From the IMG/VR virus record IMGVR_UViG_3300031606_000339, positions 1 to 64,000 of that record: 64,000 nucleotides of DNA; one strand, 5' to 3'. Position numbers and translations under genes: made by a program. This document shows, in pieces, positions 31,228 through 44,254 of this stretch. Below the pieces are notes generated by a model. It was not told where the DNA came from. It saw nothing but the letters and a program-made list of their open reading frames with translations, and did not search any database. How positions within the stretch are numbered: position 1 is the first letter of the stretch; each line of letters begins with the position of its first letter. This DNA is from a virus (Duplodnaviria; Caudoviricetes).

Positions 31228-31233
31228 AAAGCC

Positions 31234-31641
31234 AGTTCTTTGTTAGAGTGATGACATTATAGCGCGGAAACTGATAAGTTCACCTCAAGCCCGTAAAAAG
31301 GCTCCAATCAAGAAGGTCACAAGACCTCACGTTACTTCGGGAGCGCGCGGCGTCCGAGATTGGATGGATATTTATATCAACCAGAGACTTCATCCCCCCT
31401 AAAGGGAAAAGGCTGGCAGACATAAAACCAAGAATAAAGTCCCATCACTTGTTGCAAAGACGAATTGAATACTTCTGGAAGGATGTTGCTCGTGAGCAAG
31501 TAACTCGGGGATAACGGGTGAAAGTGAAGGACTAAAGCGGGAACGCCTTCGACGCAACTAAGAATTGTACATTCTTAGAGAGGGAACCTATGTTCTTAAG
31601 CCTCCATCTAAGGGAAAAATAAAAGGCTGGCAGACAAAAAA
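31234..31641 (+). ncRNA. Putative large structured ncRNA (about 400 nt), family unrecognised
   Basis: ORF-free stretch with its own promoter and many nested helices, e.g. 31247-53/31443-49, 31303-09/31358-64, 31314-27, 31384-90/31437-42, 31486-99, 31558-78. Twice-repeated AAAAGGCTGGCAGACAWAAAA. Confidence 0.7.
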
Positions 31642-33162: not shown

Positions 33163-33773
33163 AGGCTAAAGTCATAGGTATATCGGGAGTAGCCGGCTCG
33201 GGAAAAGATTTATTTTACTCTTTGATAAGTAAAAAAATCAACTGCAAAAAGTTTGCTCTGGCCGACCAGCTTAAAGAGGAGTGCAGGGCACACGTCTTAG
33301 AGTCATACGGGGTAGACATCTTGAACTGCTCTAGAGAACAAAAAAATTTAGTACGCCCATTTTTAGTGGGGGCTGGGCTAACTAGAAGAAAGATGACTAA
33401 CGGTAGGTACTTTGTGGAGAAGCTCGAGCCAAAAATTAAAGAATTTATTTATAATTATTACTGCGTAAAAGGTAATTATGACTCTGTTTACCCCTGCGTG
33501 ACTGACGTCAGATATAGCTCGCACGAAAAAGACGAGGTCGGCTGGCTAAAAGGCACGATGGGCGGAACCCTAGTTCATATAACAAGATTCGATTATACTA
33601 AAGAGGGGAAGGTAAACGTGCCCCCAGCAAATGAAGAAGAAAAGAGACATGACCCCATCTTAAAGTCTCAGGCAGACTATATACTGGAATGGGAAACAGC
33701 AAAGGGCTCTCAAGAACAAATGGAAAACAGTTTATCGAGGTGCTTGGATGATTTTGTAAATTTTATGAAATAA
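33159..33773 (+). CDS. Deoxynucleoside monophosphate kinase-like protein
   Basis: GISGVAGSGKD, ALAD.LK, R..L...G and TDVRY motifs. Confidence 0.75.
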   Translation: MKAKVIGISGVAGSGKDLFYSLISKKINCKKFALADQLKEECRAHVLESYGVDILNCSREQKNLVRPFLVGAGLTRRKMTNGRYFVEKLEPKIKEFIYNYYCVKGNYDSVYPCVTDVRYSSHEKDEVGWLKGTMGGTLVHITRFDYTKEGKVNVPPANEEEKRHDPILKSQADYILEWETAKGSQEQMENSLSRCLDDFVNFMK

Positions 33774-33777
33774 AGCC

Positions 33778-33806
33778 TTGACTGCCCACTAATAACAACT
33801 TATCTT
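33778..33806 (+). promoter_or_regulatory. Sigma70-type promoter
   Basis: TTGACT-17 nt-TATCTT. Confidence 0.6.
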
Positions 33807-33816
33807 CGAGCTAGAT

Positions 33817-34122
33817 ATGAGTGAAAACACTACTAACACACAGAAAACGGAGTGGCAAAACCGAGAACTCGGCGCGCTATGGAAACGGACCTCAAAGAAC
33901 TCTGGCCAAAAATATTTGGCTGGGCATGTTAAAGAGGTTGACGAACACGGAGTGGAGAAACGCACAAAAGTCGTAATCTTCGCTAACCGAAACAAGCAGG
34001 ACGGAGAGAGGACTCCCGACTACCGCATCTACGAGTCCAAGGACGACCCGCAGAAACAAGAAGAAAAGCAGGCTAATCCTGCTCCCACTGACACGGGGGA
34101 GGCACTTGAAGACACCTTGTGA
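33817..34122 (+). CDS. DUF736-like protein (possible ssDNA-binding)
   Basis: ELGALWKR.S..G.KYL.G and PDYRIY; acidic tail. Confidence 0.65.
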   Translation: MSENTTNTQKTEWQNRELGALWKRTSKNSGQKYLAGHVKEVDEHGVEKRTKVVIFANRNKQDGERTPDYRIYESKDDPQKQEEKQANPAPTDTGEALEDTL

Positions 34123-35201
34123 AGTCTTTTTCTCTCAACCTACCCATTAACCAAGTCTCCTTTGGACAAGTCTCAACGACTTTCCTTAGGGGATTTTACG
34201 ATAGGAAGATAGAACCCCCTTTGTTTAGCATCGGGGGGACTATCGACCTTTCGTCTCAAAACCAAGACCAAAAATTTTTTGAATGGGTAGCTAGCCTAGC
34301 CCAAAAGTCTTACTCAGAGCATAAAAGATCTAACCCTACCCTGAAACTTTGGCACCTCAACGGAGGCTTGGAGTCATTTAGCAGAGAGCACTATTTGCTT
34401 ACATTTTACGAGCTAGATGAGCCCACGAAATCAGAACTAAACGTAGCCAAGTCTTGCGACAAATTAATTTTTACTAATAATTATTCGAAAGAAATATTTA
34501 AGAGCTTTAATGTAGACTCTCATGTAGTTCCCCTCGCTTTTGATAGGTATAACTTTGGAGTCACCAATAAGAAATATTTTGACGATGATAGAATAGTTTT
34601 TAACTTATGCGGCAAGTTCGAAAAGAGAAAGCACCACGAGAAGATTATTAGGGCTTGGGCTAAAAGATTTGGAAACGACAACAGGTATTTCCTACAATGC
34701 GCTGTATACAATACGTTCTTGAACGAAGAACAGAACAAAGAACTGTTTGCTAGGTCTGTCGATAATGTGAAGTATTACAATATCCACTTCTTGGGGTTCA
34801 TGCCTCAAAACGTCCTGTACAATGACTACCTAAACTCTGGAGATATAATTATCGCAATGTCAGGAGGGGAAGGATGGGGACTGCCTGAGTTTCATTCTAT
34901 TGGGCTAGGCGCTCACGCTGTAGTTTTAAATGCTCACTCCTACAAGGAATGGGCGACCGAAGAGAACTCGGTATTAGTTGAGCCGTCAGGGAAGATAGAC
35001 GCATACGATGGAATCTTCTTTAAAAAGGGTACAGAATTTAACCAAGGCAGGATATATGACTTCCACGAAGACGAATTTATTGCCGCCTGCGAAAAGGCAA
35101 TAGAGAATCATAAATCAAATCCAATCAACGAAAATGGTCTCAAGATACAAGAGAAATTTTCTATTGAAAATAGTGTTGACAGGATTTCAGAACTTCTTTA
35201 G
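34119..35201 (+). CDS. GT-B (GT4-like) glycosyltransferase
   Basis: GKFEKRK and S.GEGWGLP..H motifs. Confidence 0.85.
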   Translation: MKSFSLNLPINQVSFGQVSTTFLRGFYDRKIEPPLFSIGGTIDLSSQNQDQKFFEWVASLAQKSYSEHKRSNPTLKLWHLNGGLESFSREHYLLTFYELDEPTKSELNVAKSCDKLIFTNNYSKEIFKSFNVDSHVVPLAFDRYNFGVTNKKYFDDDRIVFNLCGKFEKRKHHEKIIRAWAKRFGNDNRYFLQCAVYNTFLNEEQNKELFARSVDNVKYYNIHFLGFMPQNVLYNDYLNSGDIIIAMSGGEGWGLPEFHSIGLGAHAVVLNAHSYKEWATEENSVLVEPSGKIDAYDGIFFKKGTEFNQGRIYDFHEDEFIAACEKAIENHKSNPINENGLKIQEKFSIENSVDRISELL

Positions 35202-35204
35202 ACT
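35176..35204 (+). promoter_or_regulatory. Near-consensus sigma70 promoter for the omegaRNA/tnpB unit
   Basis: TTGACA-17 nt-TAGACT overlapping the upstream gene's stop; predicted +1 at about 35211. Confidence 0.75.
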
Positions 35205-35210
35205 CAGGTT

Positions 35211-35364
35211 AGTTCCCCAAAAGGAACTCTAGGGCGGGTCGCGTCCGAAGTAACGCTCTCGGAGATATGAGTAGCTCATTAGAGTCTCAGCCAGAGAATT
35301 ACCTATCAGTCCTCTCGGAGCTTCGGCTCCGAGGGGACATATTTAAACGTCACCTTGTTGCTAA
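35211..35364 (+). ncRNA. TnpB omegaRNA (reRNA)-like scaffold located upstream of tnpB
   Basis: AGGGCGGGTCGCGTCCGAAGTAACGCTCTCGGAGA...TCTC-AGCC-AGAGAA matches the recalled IS605 omegaRNA pattern. Also a 5' hairpin (35211-28) and a 13-bp C(UUCG)G hairpin (35309-38). Confidence 0.7.
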
Positions 35365-36633
35365 ATGAAAAACGAAGTACAAAGAGTCCTGAAGTTCAGA
35401 ATCTATCCAACTGATTCTCAAAAAGCTATTCTACATCAATGCTTTAATGCCGCAGTAGAAATCTACAACAAATGCTTGGAGATGAAAAAGAACGACTGGG
35501 ACGCTAAGAAAAAACTGTACAAAGAATCAGGCTCAGAGGACAAGTTTTCTAAATGGTTAAAAGACAACGACCTGTCCATTATGTCTGTCTTCGAAACCAA
35601 AAGAGAAATAAAAAACTGGAGAAAAGAATTCCCTTGGTTAGAAGAGTGCGCCTCTCAGCTACTCCACCAAGCGGCGCTTCACCTAGACACCGCTTTCAAG
35701 AACTTTTTCAGGCGGCATAAAGCCGGAGAAAAACCGGGCTTCCCCAAGTTTAAAAGTAAAAGAGATGGCAAGAAGTCATTCGCCGTAGACACAGCAAAAC
35801 TAAACTGGGACAACTCCACGCTCCAATTACCTAAGTTCCCTGACGACATTAAGGTCAAGATTCATCGCAAGAAATTGACCATAAACAAAAAGGACATAGA
35901 ATTAGAGAAAGCAATCAAAGAGGGTAAGGCGAAAACAAAAACCATTACCGTCAGCATAAATCCCAGCGGAGAATACCACGCAGCAGTGAATGTGACCTTA
36001 GCGGGTAAAGAACCTGCCAAGAAAAAGTTTGGAGAAAAAAACACCGTAGGCATAGACCTAGGGACCACAACGTTTGCGGTACTGTCCGCCGTTAAGGGAG
36101 TCAGAAAGAAGATCGGAAACCCAAGGCACTTCAAGGCTCTTCATAAAAAATTAGCAAAAGAACAGCGCAGGATGTCTAGGAAAAAACTCGGAAGCGAGAA
36201 CTACAAAAAGCAAAAAATTAAAGTAGCTAAAATTTGGCAGCAGATTAGTAATTGTCGAAACGACTTCCTCCACAAAACGTCACACGGCATTATCTCAGAC
36301 AGCAAGATTAACGCCGTTGCTCTTGAGACGCTTTCCATTCAAGACATGCAACAATCCAACAAGTACCTAGCTATGTCTATTAGCGACGCCTCGTGGTTTG
36401 AGTTTAAAAAGAACATGGAGTACAAAGCCGAGAGGCAAGGGAAAACCATCATAAGTATTGGCAGGTTTGAACCGACCACAATGACTTGTTCAGTTTGCGA
36501 TTTTAAAATGGAAAAGAAACTGAACCTTAGCATTAGAAAGTGGGAGTGCCCGGAGTGTGGAACCACCCACGATAGAGACGAAAACGCCGCAGACGTGATT
36601 AAAAAAGTTGCGCTCAGAGACTATACTGACTAG
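35365..36633 (+). CDS. tnpB: TnpB RNA-guided endonuclease (stand-alone, RuvC D-E-D intact)
   Basis: KFRIYPT, A..NFF...GFPKFKSK, GIDLG, ALETL, CSVC...CPECG, HDRDENAA. Confidence 0.95.
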   Translation: MKNEVQRVLKFRIYPTDSQKAILHQCFNAAVEIYNKCLEMKKNDWDAKKKLYKESGSEDKFSKWLKDNDLSIMSVFETKREIKNWRKEFPWLEECASQLLHQAALHLDTAFKNFFRRHKAGEKPGFPKFKSKRDGKKSFAVDTAKLNWDNSTLQLPKFPDDIKVKIHRKKLTINKKDIELEKAIKEGKAKTKTITVSINPSGEYHAAVNVTLAGKEPAKKKFGEKNTVGIDLGTTTFAVLSAVKGVRKKIGNPRHFKALHKKLAKEQRRMSRKKLGSENYKKQKIKVAKIWQQISNCRNDFLHKTSHGIISDSKINAVALETLSIQDMQQSNKYLAMSISDASWFEFKKNMEYKAERQGKTIISIGRFEPTTMTCSVCDFKMEKKLNLSIRKWECPECGTTHDRDENAADVIKKVALRDYTD

Positions 36634-36642
36634 CTTATGCGC

Positions 36643-36990
36643 ATGCCTACATACATCTTTGAACATCCCGAAAGCGGAGAAATTATAGAAGTCATACAGA
36701 AAATTAAAGAACTCCACGCCTATATAGACGAAGAGGGCGTAAAATGGAACAGAGTTTTCACCGCTCCAAATACGAACGTAGACACTAAAATAGACCCCTT
36801 TTCACCAAAAGACTTTGCGGAAAAAACCAGAAACAAATCTCAAAACCTAGGAGACCTGTGGGACAGGTCGAAGGAGCTAAGCGAAAAGAGAAAAAAAAGC
36901 TTGGGGCACGACCCCGTAGAAAAAGAATTTTTTAAAGACTACACTAAGAAAAGAAAAGGGATGAAGCACCCAAGGGACAAATCGAAATGA
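36643..36990 (+). CDS. FmdB-like N-terminal domain protein
   Basis: MPTY.F.....GE..EV.Q...W.RVF pattern. Confidence 0.65.
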   Translation: MPTYIFEHPESGEIIEVIQKIKELHAYIDEEGVKWNRVFTAPNTNVDTKIDPFSPKDFAEKTRNKSQNLGDLWDRSKELSEKRKKSLGHDPVEKEFFKDYTKKRKGMKHPRDKSK

Positions 36991-38288
36991 AGATATCAGT
37001 CTTTACTCCATGTCATAAACTAGACTTTCTCGTGCGAGCAGGCAAAAGCCTGCAGGAGCAAACTCACCAAGATTATGAGTGGGTAATCTTGCTAAATGGC
37101 GAAGCGGCAGAACCCCAATCCCGACTGGGAGTGGCGAAAGAGGTTGGCAAGCTCCTCGAGGACAACGGAATGGAAGATGTCGCAAGCAAAACTGTAGTAA
37201 AGCAATTCAGAGATTACTCTGGATACATTGGAAGGTTAAAGAAAATGTGTTGCGAGGCAGCTTCAGGAGAAGTAGTCGCCGAATTTGACCACGACGACGA
37301 ACTAGAGCCAACCTGCCTAGAAGAGTTGGACAAAGCCTTCTCCGACGAATCAGTAGACTTCGCACACACCCATTGCTACCAATACCGAGGAGAAAAAACC
37401 GAGACTCCCTACAACCCATACTGGGGGTGGAAATACAGAAAAGACGAAGAGACAGGCAGGAATATCACCCTATGCTTCGAGCCCCAACCAGCAAGCTTCG
37501 GCTACATATGGTATGCCCCGAACCACATAAGGGCTTGGAGAAGAAGCTTCTACAATAAAATTGGGGGACACGACGAAAACCTAGATGTTTGTGACGACCA
37601 CGATATCCTGTGCAGGACCTATATACACGGGAAGGTCAAGCTCATAGACAAAGCCCTGTATAGATACCATGTAAATGAAGGGCAAAATACTTGCTACGGA
37701 GAAAAAAATGCAAAGATTCAAGACCTGACGCGAGCGCTTCACGATAAATACATTGAAGACTTGGCAGCCAAATGGAGTGACATAAACAATCTAAAAAAGC
37801 TGGACCTATGCTGTCACAGATTCAAAAAAGAAGGATGGCTTGGCGTAGACGCGTACGACTACCCAGAAGTGGACATCGTTTGCAATCTAGACGAAGCCCC
37901 TTGGCCGTTTGAGGACAACAGCGTGGGAGTCATAAGAATGCAGGACTCGCTAGAACACCTCAAGGACCCCATTCAGACCATGAAAGAAATATACAGATGC
38001 CTAGCTCCCTACGGCTGGGCTCTGATTGAAGTTCCCAGCACAGACGGAAGAGGCGCGTTTCAGGACCCAACGCACGTCTCTTTCTGGAACAGCAATAGCT
38101 TTTGGTACTACACAAAAGAACAACAGGCTCAATTTATTAACTCTCCAGTAAAATTTCAACTTAACAGAATATTAGACTACTACCCGTCAGACCATCACAA
38201 AGAGCACAAAATACTCTACACAAAAGCTCACCTGATGAAATTAGAAGAAGACAAATCAATCATTCCCCCGGGGGGCAGAGAAATTTAA
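36987..38288 (+). CDS. GT2 glycosyltransferase fused to a SAM methyltransferase-like domain
   Basis: SVFTP, FDHDD and CDDHD; C-terminal WPFEDNSV, LEH and AFQDPTH. Confidence 0.85.
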   Translation: MKISVFTPCHKLDFLVRAGKSLQEQTHQDYEWVILLNGEAAEPQSRLGVAKEVGKLLEDNGMEDVASKTVVKQFRDYSGYIGRLKKMCCEAASGEVVAEFDHDDELEPTCLEELDKAFSDESVDFAHTHCYQYRGEKTETPYNPYWGWKYRKDEETGRNITLCFEPQPASFGYIWYAPNHIRAWRRSFYNKIGGHDENLDVCDDHDILCRTYIHGKVKLIDKALYRYHVNEGQNTCYGEKNAKIQDLTRALHDKYIEDLAAKWSDINNLKKLDLCCHRFKKEGWLGVDAYDYPEVDIVCNLDEAPWPFEDNSVGVIRMQDSLEHLKDPIQTMKEIYRCLAPYGWALIEVPSTDGRGAFQDPTHVSFWNSNSFWYYTKEQQAQFINSPVKFQLNRILDYYPSDHHKEHKILYTKAHLMKLEEDKSIIPPGGREI

Positions 38289-38293
38289 ACTAC

Positions 38294-40711
38294 ATGGACT
38301 ATTCAAAACTTACAGTCAAGAAGAGGAACGGCAGAATTGCCAAGCTGGACATCAACAAAATCAACCTATGCGTGCAGCGTGCATGTCACGGGCTAGAAAA
38401 CGTGTCGGCTAGCGAAGTCGTAATAGACGCGAACGTCCAGCTGTATGACAAAATTCCCACGAAAGAGATAGATAAGGCTCTAATTATGTCCGCCAGAACC
38501 AAGATGGACAAAGAGCCGAACTATTCAAGGGTCGCGGCGAGACTCTTAACGGGCAACATACATAAAGAGGTTTTCGGCAGCAGTGTTGATAAAGACGCAT
38601 TCGCTCATCAGTACAAGTTATCTTTTATCAAAAACATAAAGCTCTTGGTTAACGAGGGTATACTATCTGAAAAGCTTTTAGAATATGACCTAAAAAAACT
38701 AGCAGGAGTCCTTCAGATAGACAGAGACTCCAAGTTTAAATATCTAGGTCTGCAAATTTTATATGACAGATACCTGCACAAAATTGGTGACCGCAGGCTT
38801 GAATCCCCCCAGTCCCTATGGATGAGGGTCGCAATGGGGCTGGCTCTGGACGAAGAGAACAAAGAAGAAAAGGCTATAGAATTTTATGAAGTGCTTTCGT
38901 CGTTTCGACTGTGCTGCTCTTCGCCTACCCTTTTTAATAGTGGGAGCGTTCGTAGTCAGCTTAGCTCTTGTTATCTTAATACTTTTGAAGATAGTATCGA
39001 TGGTATCTTCGAGGGGGCGTGGCAAGAGGCTAGGAAATCTAAATATGCTGGGGGATTAGGCTTTGACGTTACGAACTTCAGGTCTGCCGGTTCTCACATC
39101 AAGGGCACCAATGGAACCTCTAGCGGTCTGGTGCCTTGGCTTAAAATCTATAACGACCTATTAGTGGCTGTTAATCAAGGAGGTAAGAGACCCGGCGCGG
39201 GCTGTGCGTATATTGAAACTTGGCACTTGGATATCGAAGAGTTTTTAGAACTAAAGAAAAACACCGGAGATGAACGCCGAAGGTGTCACGACCTAAACAC
39301 GGCGAACTGGGTCCCTAACTTCTTCCTCGCCTGCGCCGAAAGAAATGAAGACTGGTACCTCTTTTCTCCCTCAGATGCAAAAGGTCTTCACGAATTATAC
39401 GGGAAAGAGTTTGAAAAAAAATACAAAGAGTATTGCCGCAAAGCGGACAATGGAGAAATTACCAATTTTAGAATCATAAAAGCCAAGAAATTGTGGAAGA
39501 AAATGTTAAGGTCGCTGTTCGAAACGGGACACCCTTGGATTACATTCAAAGATAACGCGAACATCAGATACTCAAACAGTCATGAAGGAGTAATTCATAG
39601 CTCGAACCTATGCACAGAGATATTCCTGCACACTAAGCCATCGCGGTTTGAGGGGGGCGAGAAATCAGAGATTGGAGAGACAGCGGTGTGTAACCTAAGC
39701 TCCGTCAACCTGAAGGAACACATTAAAGACAACGGCAAGCTAGACTTTAAACTGCTGGCCAAAACGATTTCAACTCAAATGCGGATGCTAGACAACGTAA
39801 TTGATTTGAACTTCTACCCCACTAAAGAAGCTGAAAAAGCCAACATGCTTCACAGACCGGTCGGCGCTGGCTCTATGGGCTGGGCTGACGTCCTTCACTC
39901 TTATAAAATAGACTACTCTTCTGACGAAGCAGTTAAGTTCTCAGACGAACTATATGAATTCATATCGTACCACTGTCTGCTAAACTCTAGCAAGTTAGCT
40001 AAAGAACGCGGAAAATACGAAACATACGAAGGCTCGCTGTGGTCTGAAAACATTCTACCAATTGATTCGTATAAATATCTTATGGACTATTTAGATTCTA
40101 AGCCTATCCTCCATAGGGGAAAAAAGTATGCGCCCGAACTGGATTGGAAAAACGTTAGAAGCCACATACGAGACAGCGGCATGCGTAATAGTAACACTAT
40201 GGCTATTGCTCCTACTGCTACTATATCTTACATTCAAGGTTGCTCTCCTTCTATTGAGCCCGATTTTTCTACTTTTTTCGTCTACGAAAATAAATCGGGG
40301 AATCTTTTTATAACTAGCGAGTGGTTTGTGGACGAATGTAGGCAGATGGGGCTTTGGAACACAGGTCTAAGCGAGGCGTTAAAGGCTGTAGACGGAGACG
40401 TAAGCAAGCTAGACCTCCCGCAAGAACTAAAAGATAGGTACAGGACCGCCTTTGACCAAGACCAATTTAAATTAATAGATTGTGCCTCGGTCAGGCAAAA
40501 GTGGATTGACATGGGGCAATCGTTGAACCTATTTAATAACGCTAGCTCGTTAAAGTACTTGAATGATTTATATATCCATGCTAAAAACAGAGGACTTAAA
40601 AGCACGTACTACTTAAGAAACAAAAGCGCAAGCGAAATTGAGAAATCCACCGAACCGAACGATGCAGAAGCCTGCTCAATCTTAGACCCCACATGTGAAA
40701 GCTGCCAATAA
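38294..40711 (+). CDS. nrdA: Ribonucleotide reductase class I alpha subunit with ATP cone
   Basis: V.KRNG ATP cone, SPTLFN, LSSC, SNLCTE, VCNLSS, APTA and C-terminal CESCQ. Confidence 0.96.
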   Translation: MDYSKLTVKKRNGRIAKLDINKINLCVQRACHGLENVSASEVVIDANVQLYDKIPTKEIDKALIMSARTKMDKEPNYSRVAARLLTGNIHKEVFGSSVDKDAFAHQYKLSFIKNIKLLVNEGILSEKLLEYDLKKLAGVLQIDRDSKFKYLGLQILYDRYLHKIGDRRLESPQSLWMRVAMGLALDEENKEEKAIEFYEVLSSFRLCCSSPTLFNSGSVRSQLSSCYLNTFEDSIDGIFEGAWQEARKSKYAGGLGFDVTNFRSAGSHIKGTNGTSSGLVPWLKIYNDLLVAVNQGGKRPGAGCAYIETWHLDIEEFLELKKNTGDERRRCHDLNTANWVPNFFLACAERNEDWYLFSPSDAKGLHELYGKEFEKKYKEYCRKADNGEITNFRIIKAKKLWKKMLRSLFETGHPWITFKDNANIRYSNSHEGVIHSSNLCTEIFLHTKPSRFEGGEKSEIGETAVCNLSSVNLKEHIKDNGKLDFKLLAKTISTQMRMLDNVIDLNFYPTKEAEKANMLHRPVGAGSMGWADVLHSYKIDYSSDEAVKFSDELYEFISYHCLLNSSKLAKERGKYETYEGSLWSENILPIDSYKYLMDYLDSKPILHRGKKYAPELDWKNVRSHIRDSGMRNSNTMAIAPTATISYIQGCSPSIEPDFSTFFVYENKSGNLFITSEWFVDECRQMGLWNTGLSEALKAVDGDVSKLDLPQELKDRYRTAFDQDQFKLIDCASVRQKWIDMGQSLNLFNNASSLKYLNDLYIHAKNRGLKSTYYLRNKSASEIEKSTEPNDAEACSILDPTCESCQ

Positions 40712-43465: not shown

Positions 43466-44254
43466 ATGAAATACTCCATAGGCATAGTAACATACAGCAA
43501 GCGCTTTCACGCATTCTTCGAGCCCTTAGTTGACTCAATTAAAGAGCTCAAGCCCGACATTGATATCGTCGTTGCTGTGAACGGCGACTGCAAGAAAGAG
43601 TTCGACGAGACCTACAGGCAAAAAATGTTGTCTTTCTGCGCTAGTCACAAAAGAATATTCCCGATGTTTTTCACAGACCACAGGTCTTTAGCGAAGATGT
43701 GGAATAACACTATCCTCAACTGTCCGACGGAGAATATCCTGTTATTAAATGATGACGTTTATCTAACTGAAGAGTTCTGGCCGATTCTTGAAGCCTCAAT
43801 TGAGCGACAAGAAAAAATGCCATTGAAATCTTTTAAAATAAACTCAAGCTGGAGCCACGTTTTTCTGAACAGGGAAGAGGTTTACGAGAATCACTGGTTT
43901 GACGAAAGACTGCTGGGCGTAGGGTCAGAAGACGGAGACTTTGAGTGGAGGATGCTAAAGAGCAGGGGGCTGGACCAGTTTCCGGACTACCTGATAATGA
44001 AAGGGATCATAAACCGCACGAAACAAACGGCCGACTCCACGCTCGCGCAAAAAAAAGCCAGACTCATAAACCACAAATATTTCCACATCAACAGGGAAGT
44101 AATGCACGAAGTAAAATATAAACCAAGTCCTGAATCTCCACCAAGGGGCATACTAAAACTATCTAAGTACGGAACAAGGGTTGAGGAAAAGGATCCCTGC
44201 AAGCAACAGTACCCGTACGAAAAGTTTTACTGGGAAAATAAAAAAAACATATGA
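43466..44254 (+). CDS. GT2 glycosyltransferase
   Basis: LLNDD and FDER..G.G.EDGD motifs. Confidence 0.8.
   Translation: MKYSIGIVTYSKRFHAFFEPLVDSIKELKPDIDIVVAVNGDCKKEFDETYRQKMLSFCASHKRIFPMFFTDHRSLAKMWNNTILNCPTENILLLNDDVYLTEEFWPILEASIERQEKMPLKSFKINSSWSHVFLNREEVYENHWFDERLLGVGSEDGDFEWRMLKSRGLDQFPDYLIMKGIINRTKQTADSTLAQKKARLINHKYFHINREVMHEVKYKPSPESPPRGILKLSKYGTRVEEKDPCKQQYPYEKFYWENKKNI

What the first reader, a model, noticed from the sequence alone, without database searches (positions are those of the whole stretch)
35176..36640. Domesticated phage TnpB with its omegaRNA scaffold upstream of the gene
Seen: TnpB retains the RuvC D-E-D and the zinc finger. There is no tnpA in the window, and the next gene starts within 10 nt of the stop, so there is no downstream right end or omegaRNA. 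Instead, a TTGACA-17-TAGACT promoter drives a ~150-nt leader: 5' hairpin (35211-28), GGGCG/CGTCC hairpin, GAAGTAACGCTCTCGGAGA, inner hairpin, TCTC-AGCC-AGAGAA (CTCT/AGAG and GAGA/TCTC pair), then a 13-bp UUCG hairpin and ...GTCAC. Established: IS200/IS605 omegaRNAs normally overlap the tnpB 3' end and right end and take their guide from flanking DNA. Inference: the scaffold has been relocated and fixed, so this is a non-mobile phage RNA-guided nuclease, perhaps used against the host or competing phages or for regulation.
Basis: partly seen in the sequence, partly recalled or inferred. Interest (0 to 1): 0.88.

Follow-up and report, generated by a model that had tools for sequence, protein, structure and literature searches.

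The report
Phage TnpB with guide-RNA scaffold upstream
A marine phage has kept an intact transposon-type RNA-guided nuclease gene (tnpB) without its transposon, and the folded guide-RNA scaffold that normally follows such genes sits in front of it, so this is a fixed, re-wired guide-RNA nuclease whose target is still unknown.

Summary
ORF 35365-36633 is a full TnpB with the RuvC D-E-D triad and the zinc finger intact.

The 5' leader (about 35225-35353) is homologous to the canonical 3' omegaRNA scaffolds of distant TnpB relatives, shown in both directions:
- A covariance model built from the leader hits only the stretch just downstream of tnpB in 10-12 relatives.
- A model built from 22 such canonical scaffolds hits only the leader in this 100-kb record. 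It finds nothing at the tnpB 3' end.

Five related phages have the two flanking genes abutting, with neither tnpB nor scaffold. The cassette is therefore an insertion, without TnpA or transposon ends, single-copy, and present in every contig of this phage that I recovered.

A sister lineage keeps it at the same site. Synonymous sites there are saturated, tnpB is under purifying selection, and the leader core is 97-98% identical.

What remains open is the guide. The scaffold-guide boundary is probably at 35353|35354, so the guide would overlap the tnpB start codon. The pseudoknot is imperfect and no target was found.

The scan has noted upstream TnpB scaffolds in other phages, usually as extra copies or with mini-arrays. 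Here the upstream scaffold is the only one. I rate it a new variant of a known kind.

The parts
35176..35204 (+). Sigma-70-like promoter. The -35 TTGACA lies inside the last codons of the upstream gene; the -10 TAGACT overlaps its stop codon.
   Evidence: 10 of 12 consensus match. Both hexamers and the 17-nt spacing are kept in L002. No transcription start site is known.
35211..35228 (+). 5' hairpin H1 (AGUUCC / GGAACU). It is not part of the canonical scaffold of relatives.
   Evidence: Predicted in the fold. One compensatory change (U:A to G:C) and one wobble change against L002.
35232..35246 (+). Scaffold stem 1 (GGGCG / CGUCC) with loop GGUCG. It corresponds to ISDra2 stem 1, whose loop supplies the 5' strand of the pseudoknot.
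   Evidence: Aligned by both models. The helix covaries across the family. ISDra2 architecture from PMC10097598.
35250..35302 (+). Stem 2 (CUCU 35256-59 with AGAG 35293-96, extended by GUAA/UUAC) enclosing stem 3 (35262-35288). Conserved blocks are ACGC..GGAGAUAUGAG and CAGCC.AGAA.
   Evidence: Blocks are shared with L039-type canonical scaffolds. The stretch is invariant between window and L002.
35309..35338 (+). Stem 4: a 13-bp hairpin with a UUCG loop. It is longer than in relatives, which have 8-10 bp and a UUUA-type loop.
   Evidence: I21. Two positions change with the pairing kept against L002. An RNA-library contig runs through it into tnpB.
35339..35353 (+). A/U-rich linker, then CGUC-AC. 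This is the candidate 3' strand of the pseudoknot plus a 2-nt linker, that is, the former right-end terminus.
   Evidence: Relatives end UGUC-AA| or GUUC-AC|, and their loop-tail pairing is 83 of 88. Here 3 of 4 pairs form in each lineage. CACCU is conserved between window and L002.
35354..35373 (+). Predicted guide segment (16-20 nt, starting CUUGUUGCUAAAUG...). It overlaps the tnpB start codon at 35365.
   Evidence: Inferred from its position after the scaffold terminus. It differs in L002. No other match in the record beyond chance.
35365..36633 (+). tnpB, 422 aa, with catalytic D231/E321/D405 and a CxxC..CxxC zinc finger.
   Evidence: pN 0.17 against pS 0.78 versus L002.
36634..36642 (+). 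Right edge of the insertion: 3-9 nt between the tnpB stop and the next gene. There is no room for a right end.
   Evidence: No scaffold hit here.

Best explanation
An IS200/IS605-type tnpB unit entered the common ancestor of two marine phage lineages, between a glycosyltransferase-like gene and a 117-aa gene. It was then immobilised: it has no TnpA and no left or right end, and it is single-copy.

Its omegaRNA scaffold now lies in the 5' leader of tnpB instead of after the gene. Promoter, scaffold and tnpB most likely form one transcript. TnpB binds the scaffold and trims the 5' end, as shown for other TnpBs, giving an RNA-protein complex whose guide is the 16-20 nt after ...GUCAC (from 35354).

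Because this segment holds the tnpB start codon, making a guide RNA should consume or block the mRNA. That would couple nuclease level to guide-RNA level (inferred).

Shown here: homology of the leader to canonical scaffolds, the insertion and fixation, purifying selection on both protein and RNA, and intact catalytic residues. Inferred: co-transcription, complex formation, the guide boundary, autoregulation and any DNA target.
For: - Leader model R1 hits only the stretch 0-30 nt after tnpB, on the + strand, in 10-12 distant relatives.
- Reciprocal model R2, built from 22 canonical scaffolds, hits only the leader in the window and in L002.
- Family helices covary: 95.5% of cells paired, 0 of 500 shuffles as high, slid controls about 40%.
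- Five related phages have empty sites.
- Every contig carrying the exact flanking proteins also carries tnpB.
- The leader core is 97-98% identical while synonymous sites are saturated. tnpB pN is 0.17 against pS 0.78.
- D-E-D and the zinc finger are intact.
- A contig from an RNA library spans 35278-35472.
- TnpB processes the 5' end of its own mRNA into omegaRNA (PMC10278001, abstract).
Against: - The pseudoknot strand is imperfect, 3 of 4 pairs in each lineage. It lies 12-17 nt further from stem 4 than in canonical scaffolds, which might prevent proper placement of a guide.
- The predicted guide is also constrained as the translation start, and it has no match elsewhere in the record or in the related loci.
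- Only two lineages exist, so covariation within the clade is thin.
- The RNA-library contig could be DNA carry-over and shows no transcript ends.
- The record is 63% complete, so a partner RNA or a tnpA elsewhere cannot be excluded.
Confidence: 0.7

Rival explanations
1. The leader is only a cis-acting operator. TnpB binds the scaffold in its own 5' UTR to repress translation, and no functional guide is made from this locus.
For: - The segment after the scaffold contains the start codon and is poorly conserved.
- The pseudoknot is imperfect and displaced.
- No target was found.
Against: A nuclease with intact D-E-D under purifying selection needs some guide to be useful. No other scaffold or array exists in the 100-kb record. 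Regulation and guide production are also not exclusive.
Confidence: 0.15
2. Split system. The scaffold RNA ends at the strong UUCG hairpin, which in L002 is followed by a U-rich run. It would act like a tracrRNA and take its guide in trans from another RNA, possibly in the unsampled part of the genome.
For: - Stem 4 is lengthened to 13 bp and is followed by CUUUUAAAA in L002.
- A near-identical hairpin serves as an ordinary terminator elsewhere in L002.
- Transposon-CRISPR intermediates (TranC) with split RNAs are known (PMC13565253).
Against: - No repeat or mini-array lies near the gene, and there is no second scaffold copy in the record.
- The window's own U-run is weak and is not called a terminator.
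- An RNA-library contig reads through the hairpin.
- The nearby 410-nt conserved RNA also occurs in a related phage that lacks tnpB.
Confidence: 0.1
3. A decaying transposon remnant: a leftover right end next to a tnpB that happens still to be open, with no function for the phage.
For: The element lacks TnpA, LE and RE, and its canonical order is broken.
Against: The leader core is the most conserved stretch in 8 kb, while neutral sites are saturated. The ORF has stayed open with pN/pS about 0.2 and all catalytic residues intact in both lineages.
Confidence: 0.03

Closest known systems
ISDra2-type TnpB with its omegaRNA (IS200/IS605 family; PDB 8h1j/8exa; PMC10097598, PMC8612924)
   Same: - Same protein family and domain order, with the catalytic triad and zinc finger.
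- The RNA has the same plan: stem 1 with a pseudoknot loop, stem 2, a variable stem 3, a terminal stem 4, then a short tail before the guide.
- Sequence blocks are shared with canonical scaffolds of viral relatives.
   Different: - The scaffold lies 5' of the gene, not at its 3' end.
- There is no TnpA, LE or RE, and the unit is single-copy and syntenic.
- There are 12-nt and 12-17-nt insertions around stem 4.
- The pseudoknot is only partly complementary.
- The guide would be the gene's own start region rather than flanking DNA.
Stand-alone omegaRNAs acting in trans, and upstream spare scaffolds
   Same: A scaffold without its own nuclease gene lies next to a tnpB. L056 carries a scaffold-like copy directly upstream of tnpB.
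   Different: In those cases a canonical downstream scaffold is also present. Here the upstream scaffold is the only one, and it has been conserved through long divergence.
IscB/IsrB OMEGA loci
   Same: The guide-RNA gene lies upstream of the nuclease gene (PMC10691335).
   Different: The protein and RNA families are unrelated, and in IscB the guide is at the 5' end of the RNA. The likeness is one of layout only.
TldR (nuclease-dead TnpB-derived repressors of phages) and TranC / type V CRISPR intermediates
   Same: These are TnpB descendants that have been immobilised and put to use by phages or hosts (PMC10705468, PMC13565253).
   Different: The catalytic residues are intact here, so this is not TldR. 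There is no array or repeat, so it is neither TranC nor Cas12.

Membership tests
TnpB (OrfB_IS605) RNA-guided nuclease | HTH/REC, RuvC and zinc-ribbon domains above the curated cut-offs | tested here: met
   PF12323 39.7 bits, PF01385 86 bits, PF07282 67.2 bits, all above cut-off. E 3e-52 to 8h1j.
TnpB (OrfB_IS605) RNA-guided nuclease | RuvC D-E-D catalytic triad and CxxC..CxxC zinc finger | tested here: met
   D231, E321, D405, C375, C378, C395 and C398 are invariant in A3 and align with ISDra2.
ISDra2-like omegaRNA scaffold | Stems 1, 2 and 4 with the conserved blocks (stem 1-GAA, ACGC..GGAG, ..GAA-stem 4) | tested here: met
   R2, built without the window, hits 35225-35347 at E 5.6e-5. Helices covary in A10.
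ISDra2-like omegaRNA scaffold | Pseudoknot between the stem-1 loop and the 4 nt lying 2 nt before the guide | tested here: inconclusive
   Relatives pair at 83 of 88 positions. Window GUCG against CGUC, and L002 GUCA against AGAC, each give 3 of 4. The strand is displaced by 12-17 nt.
ISDra2-like omegaRNA scaffold | Encoded at the 3' end of tnpB, running into the right end | tested here: not met
   There is no hit at 36400-36800, and the next gene starts 3-9 nt after the stop.
Mobile IS200/IS605 or IS1341 element | TnpA in cis or trans, LE and RE hairpins, and several copies or variable sites | tested here: not met
   No Y1 transposase. One copy only. No LE: 11 nt lie between the scaffold end and the ATG, against about 110 nt in relatives. 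The site is the same in all contigs and in L002.
TldR (nuclease-dead repressor) | Loss of RuvC catalytic residues or C-terminal truncation | tested here: not met
   The triad and the full C-terminus are present.
TranC / type V CRISPR | A repeat-spacer array or a repeat matching the scaffold's 3' part | tested here: not met
   No such repeats in 33500-38500, and no second scaffold-like copy in the record.
Functional RNA-guided nuclease complex | TnpB binds this RNA and cuts DNA matching the guide next to a TAM | not testable with these tools
   Needs RIP-seq or small-RNA-seq and a TAM-library assay.

The most novel reading that the evidence does not exclude
A phage has turned a transposon nuclease into a fixed gene by moving the omegaRNA into the 5' UTR, so that the guide overlaps the start codon. 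Each mRNA would then be either translated or converted into one guide RNA, a built-in dosage control. The complex would be aimed at a lineage-specific target in a host or a rival phage that is not in present databases.
Probability: 0.25. Interest if true: 0.75.

Novelty: new variant of a known kind. Interest (0 to 1): 0.62.

Why it matters
Published surveys place the TnpB omegaRNA downstream of the gene and treat immobilised TnpBs as mostly inactivated (PMC10691335). Here a catalytically intact TnpB has been kept by a phage through long divergence, together with a relocated and extremely conserved scaffold.

- It gives a compact natural example of promoter, guide-RNA scaffold, guide and nuclease in one short unit of about 1.45 kb.
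- It shows that the scaffold can be separated from the gene's 3' end.
- It may represent a step on the road from transposon RNA to separately encoded guide RNAs.
- It raises a testable question about what abundant marine phages do with such nucleases.

Tried and rejected
- **Rfam:** no family matches the leader or the tnpB 3' end.
- **More lineages:** an exact-core search of viral contigs found nothing. The same search of metagenome contigs found only the L002-type contig. The protein search shows only one relative above 40% identity. Only two lineages are therefore available.
- **Guide targets:**
  - 16-mers from 35337-35385 have no significant second match in the 100-kb record.
  - Two 15-of-16 matches in the epimerase gene at 44251 and 44466 are at chance level. 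22% of random 35-start stretches, and 6 of 14 ATGAAAAA sites, do as well.
  - No match longer than 14 nt occurs in L002 or in the five empty-site loci.
- **Tail as an old guide:** the idea was that the tail after stem 4 is a relic of a guide against the start of the 117-aa gene. The window gives 12 of 15, p about 0.03 uncorrected, and L002 gives nothing. Not supported.
- **Mini-array or tracr-like split:** no repeats were found.
- **Empty-site variant within this phage species:** none was found among contigs carrying the exact flanking proteins.
- **TAM from relatives:** BLAST boundaries of left ends were too imprecise to read a TAM.
- **TnpB tree:** the window clade sits on a long branch in an unresolved group that holds all carriers of this scaffold type. 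This is consistent with a cognate scaffold but not specific.

Full report
**What is there.** The window is part of a 100,489-bp viral record, estimated 63% complete, from seawater.

ORF 35365-36633 encodes a 422-aa TnpB with all three Pfam domains above cut-off. It aligns over its full length with ISDra2 TnpB (8h1j, E 3e-52). D231, E321, D405 and the four zinc-finger cysteines are invariant among 24 homologues.

The upstream gene (34119-35201) is a 360-aa glycosyltransferase-like protein. The downstream gene is a 117-aa protein starting 3 nt after the tnpB stop, or 9 nt by homology. No Y1 transposase occurs in the record, and tnpB is single-copy.

**The leader.** Rfam has no match.

The only close relative of the protein is P0002 (71-72% identical, depending on the aligner). 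It lies in a TARA contig (L002) with the same gene order. Between the two phages the leader core is nearly invariant, and the first and last hairpins carry compensatory changes.

Over 8 kb the two genomes are 77% identical. Synonymous sites are saturated (pS 0.7-0.8). tnpB has pN 0.17 against pS 0.78, which indicates purifying selection. The leader core, 35219-35318, scores 97-98% and ties for the best 60-nt windows. The 3' end of tnpB and the start of the next gene diverge as ordinary coding sequence.

**Is the leader an omegaRNA scaffold?** I fetched 80 viral loci with TnpBs 32-40% identical to this one and tested homology in both directions.

- *Leader model against relatives.* A covariance model built from the leader (R1) hit, apart from the leader itself, 10 full-length and 2 partial places. 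All were on the tnpB strand and all started within about 0-50 nt after the tnpB end. By position alone each such hit has a chance of roughly 0.5%.
- *Shared sequence.* The hits share stem 1 followed by GAA, the block ACGC..GGAG, and a terminal hairpin. Twenty-two of the 80 loci carry the block downstream of tnpB.
- *These are true right ends.* Copy boundaries of multi-copy elements place the right end directly after GTCAA or TTCAC.
- *Canonical model against the window.* A model built only from these 22 canonical scaffolds (R2) finds just two things in 117 kb: the leader of the window (35225-35347, E 5.6e-5) and that of L002 (E 7e-6). The 117 kb comprised the window, L002 and five related phage loci. 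R2 finds only the leader in the whole 100-kb record.
- *Structure support.* Family helices are backed by covariation: 95.5% of cells paired, 90 cells changed on both sides, 0 of 500 shuffles as high, slid controls about 40%. The alignment is fitted to the model, so these counts lean towards the structure.
- *Match to the solved RNA.* The plan fits the ISDra2 omegaRNA: stem 1 with a pseudoknot loop, stem 2, variable stem 3, stem 4, then tail and guide (PMC10097598).

**Insertion and fixation.** Five related phages (flanking protein 54-62% identical) have the 360-aa gene abutting the 117-aa gene. They have no tnpB and no scaffold hit. The cassette, 35202 to about 36642, is therefore an insertion shared by the window and L002 lineages.

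All contigs that encode the exact flanking proteins also carry tnpB. They show at most a few SNPs and none in 35337-35364. Relatives have about 110 nt of left end before tnpB; here only 11 nt separate the scaffold terminus from the ATG. Nothing follows the stop. The unit has neither end of a transposon.

**Differences from canonical scaffolds, and the guide.** In relatives, positions 2-5 of the stem-1 loop pair with the four tail nucleotides that lie 2 nt before the right end. Pairing is 83 of 88, with three Watson-Crick combinations, and 0 of 5000 shuffles reach that.

In the window the loop is GGUCG and the candidate tail is CGUC-AC (35348-35353). In L002 they are GGUCA and AGAC-AC. Each gives 3 of 4 pairs. 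The motif CACCU is conserved between the two phages.

This tail lies 12-17 nt further from stem 4 than usual, because of an A/U-rich insert. A further 12 nt precede stem 4, and stem 4 itself is lengthened to 13 bp.

I therefore place the scaffold-guide boundary at 35353|35354, with moderate confidence only. An alternative uses GAC at 35336-38, directly after stem 4, but it has no counterpart in L002.

The predicted guide (35354-35369/73) overlaps the tnpB start codon and differs in L002. No second match to it exists beyond chance in the record, in L002 or in the empty-site phages.

**Expression.** One metatranscriptome run holds a 195-nt contig covering 35278-35472. That spans stem 4 through to the first 100 nt of tnpB. 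It is a weak hint of co-transcription: contigs show no ends, and DNA carry-over is possible.

**Mechanism proposed.** The promoter at 35176-35204 drives one RNA with the scaffold in the 5' UTR. TnpB binds it and trims the 5' side, a property shown for other TnpBs (PMC10278001). The 3'-adjacent segment then serves as the guide.

Because that segment holds the start codon, binding or trimming would shut off translation of that mRNA. This autoregulation is inference. The DNA target and the TAM are unknown.

**How the scaffold moved.** This is not settled. One route is loss of the downstream copy from an arrangement like that of L056, which has scaffold-like copies on both sides of tnpB. The other is an internal rearrangement.

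**Known context.** Surveys state that the omegaRNA lies downstream of tnpB, in contrast to IscB. They also report that stand-alone omegaRNAs work in trans and that immobilised TnpBs are mostly inactivated (PMC10691335).

Earlier notes of this scan describe upstream scaffold copies or mini-arrays beside phage tnpB genes on other DNA. Here the upstream scaffold is the only one and there is no array. I file it as a new variant of a known kind.

Noticed in passing
window 31233-31640: A non-coding stretch of about 410 nt with its own promoter-like site is about 96% identical to L002 although neutral sites are saturated. Rfam has no match. A homologue exists in the tnpB-less related phage L090 (E 5e-14), so it is a conserved phage RNA that is not tied to TnpB.
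   Followed up: partly
L056:1765-1879 and L056:3126-3241: This viral relative has a scaffold-like copy directly upstream of tnpB (R2 E 6e-4, with GAAGUUACGC..GGAG) as well as the canonical downstream scaffold. It could represent an intermediate on the way to the arrangement in the window.
   Followed up: partly
window 35202-35203 and 36648: In two seawater DNA runs from different studies, Logan contigs end exactly at 35202 or 35203, the left edge of the insertion. One contig starts at 36648, near the right edge. These could be assembly-graph branch points, meaning variants that differ at the cassette edges. The alternative branches could not be seen.
   Followed up: no
window 35337-35351 versus 36653-36667: The tail after stem 4 matches codons 4-8 of the downstream gene at 12 of 15 positions (p about 0.03 uncorrected). 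L002 shows nothing similar. It might be a relic of an older guide against the empty site, but it is not significant.
   Followed up: yes
L002:12600-12655: An intrinsic terminator after the ribonucleotide reductase genes of the sister phage uses almost the same hairpin (..CAGAGCUUCGGCUCUG.. followed by a U-run) as stem 4 of the scaffold.
   Followed up: no
window 35365-36633 versus its neighbours: TnpB is 72% identical to its L002 counterpart, while neighbouring proteins range from 77 to 90% (flanking genes 78-90%; the 2OG-oxygenase gene 77%). In the tree it sits on a long branch (0.77). It therefore evolves faster than the surrounding phage genes, though still under purifying selection.
   Followed up: partly
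window 35235 (locus L096): One contig of the same phage carries C>A at 35235, which would break a stem-1 pair. It is a single low-depth contig and may be an error.
   Followed up: no
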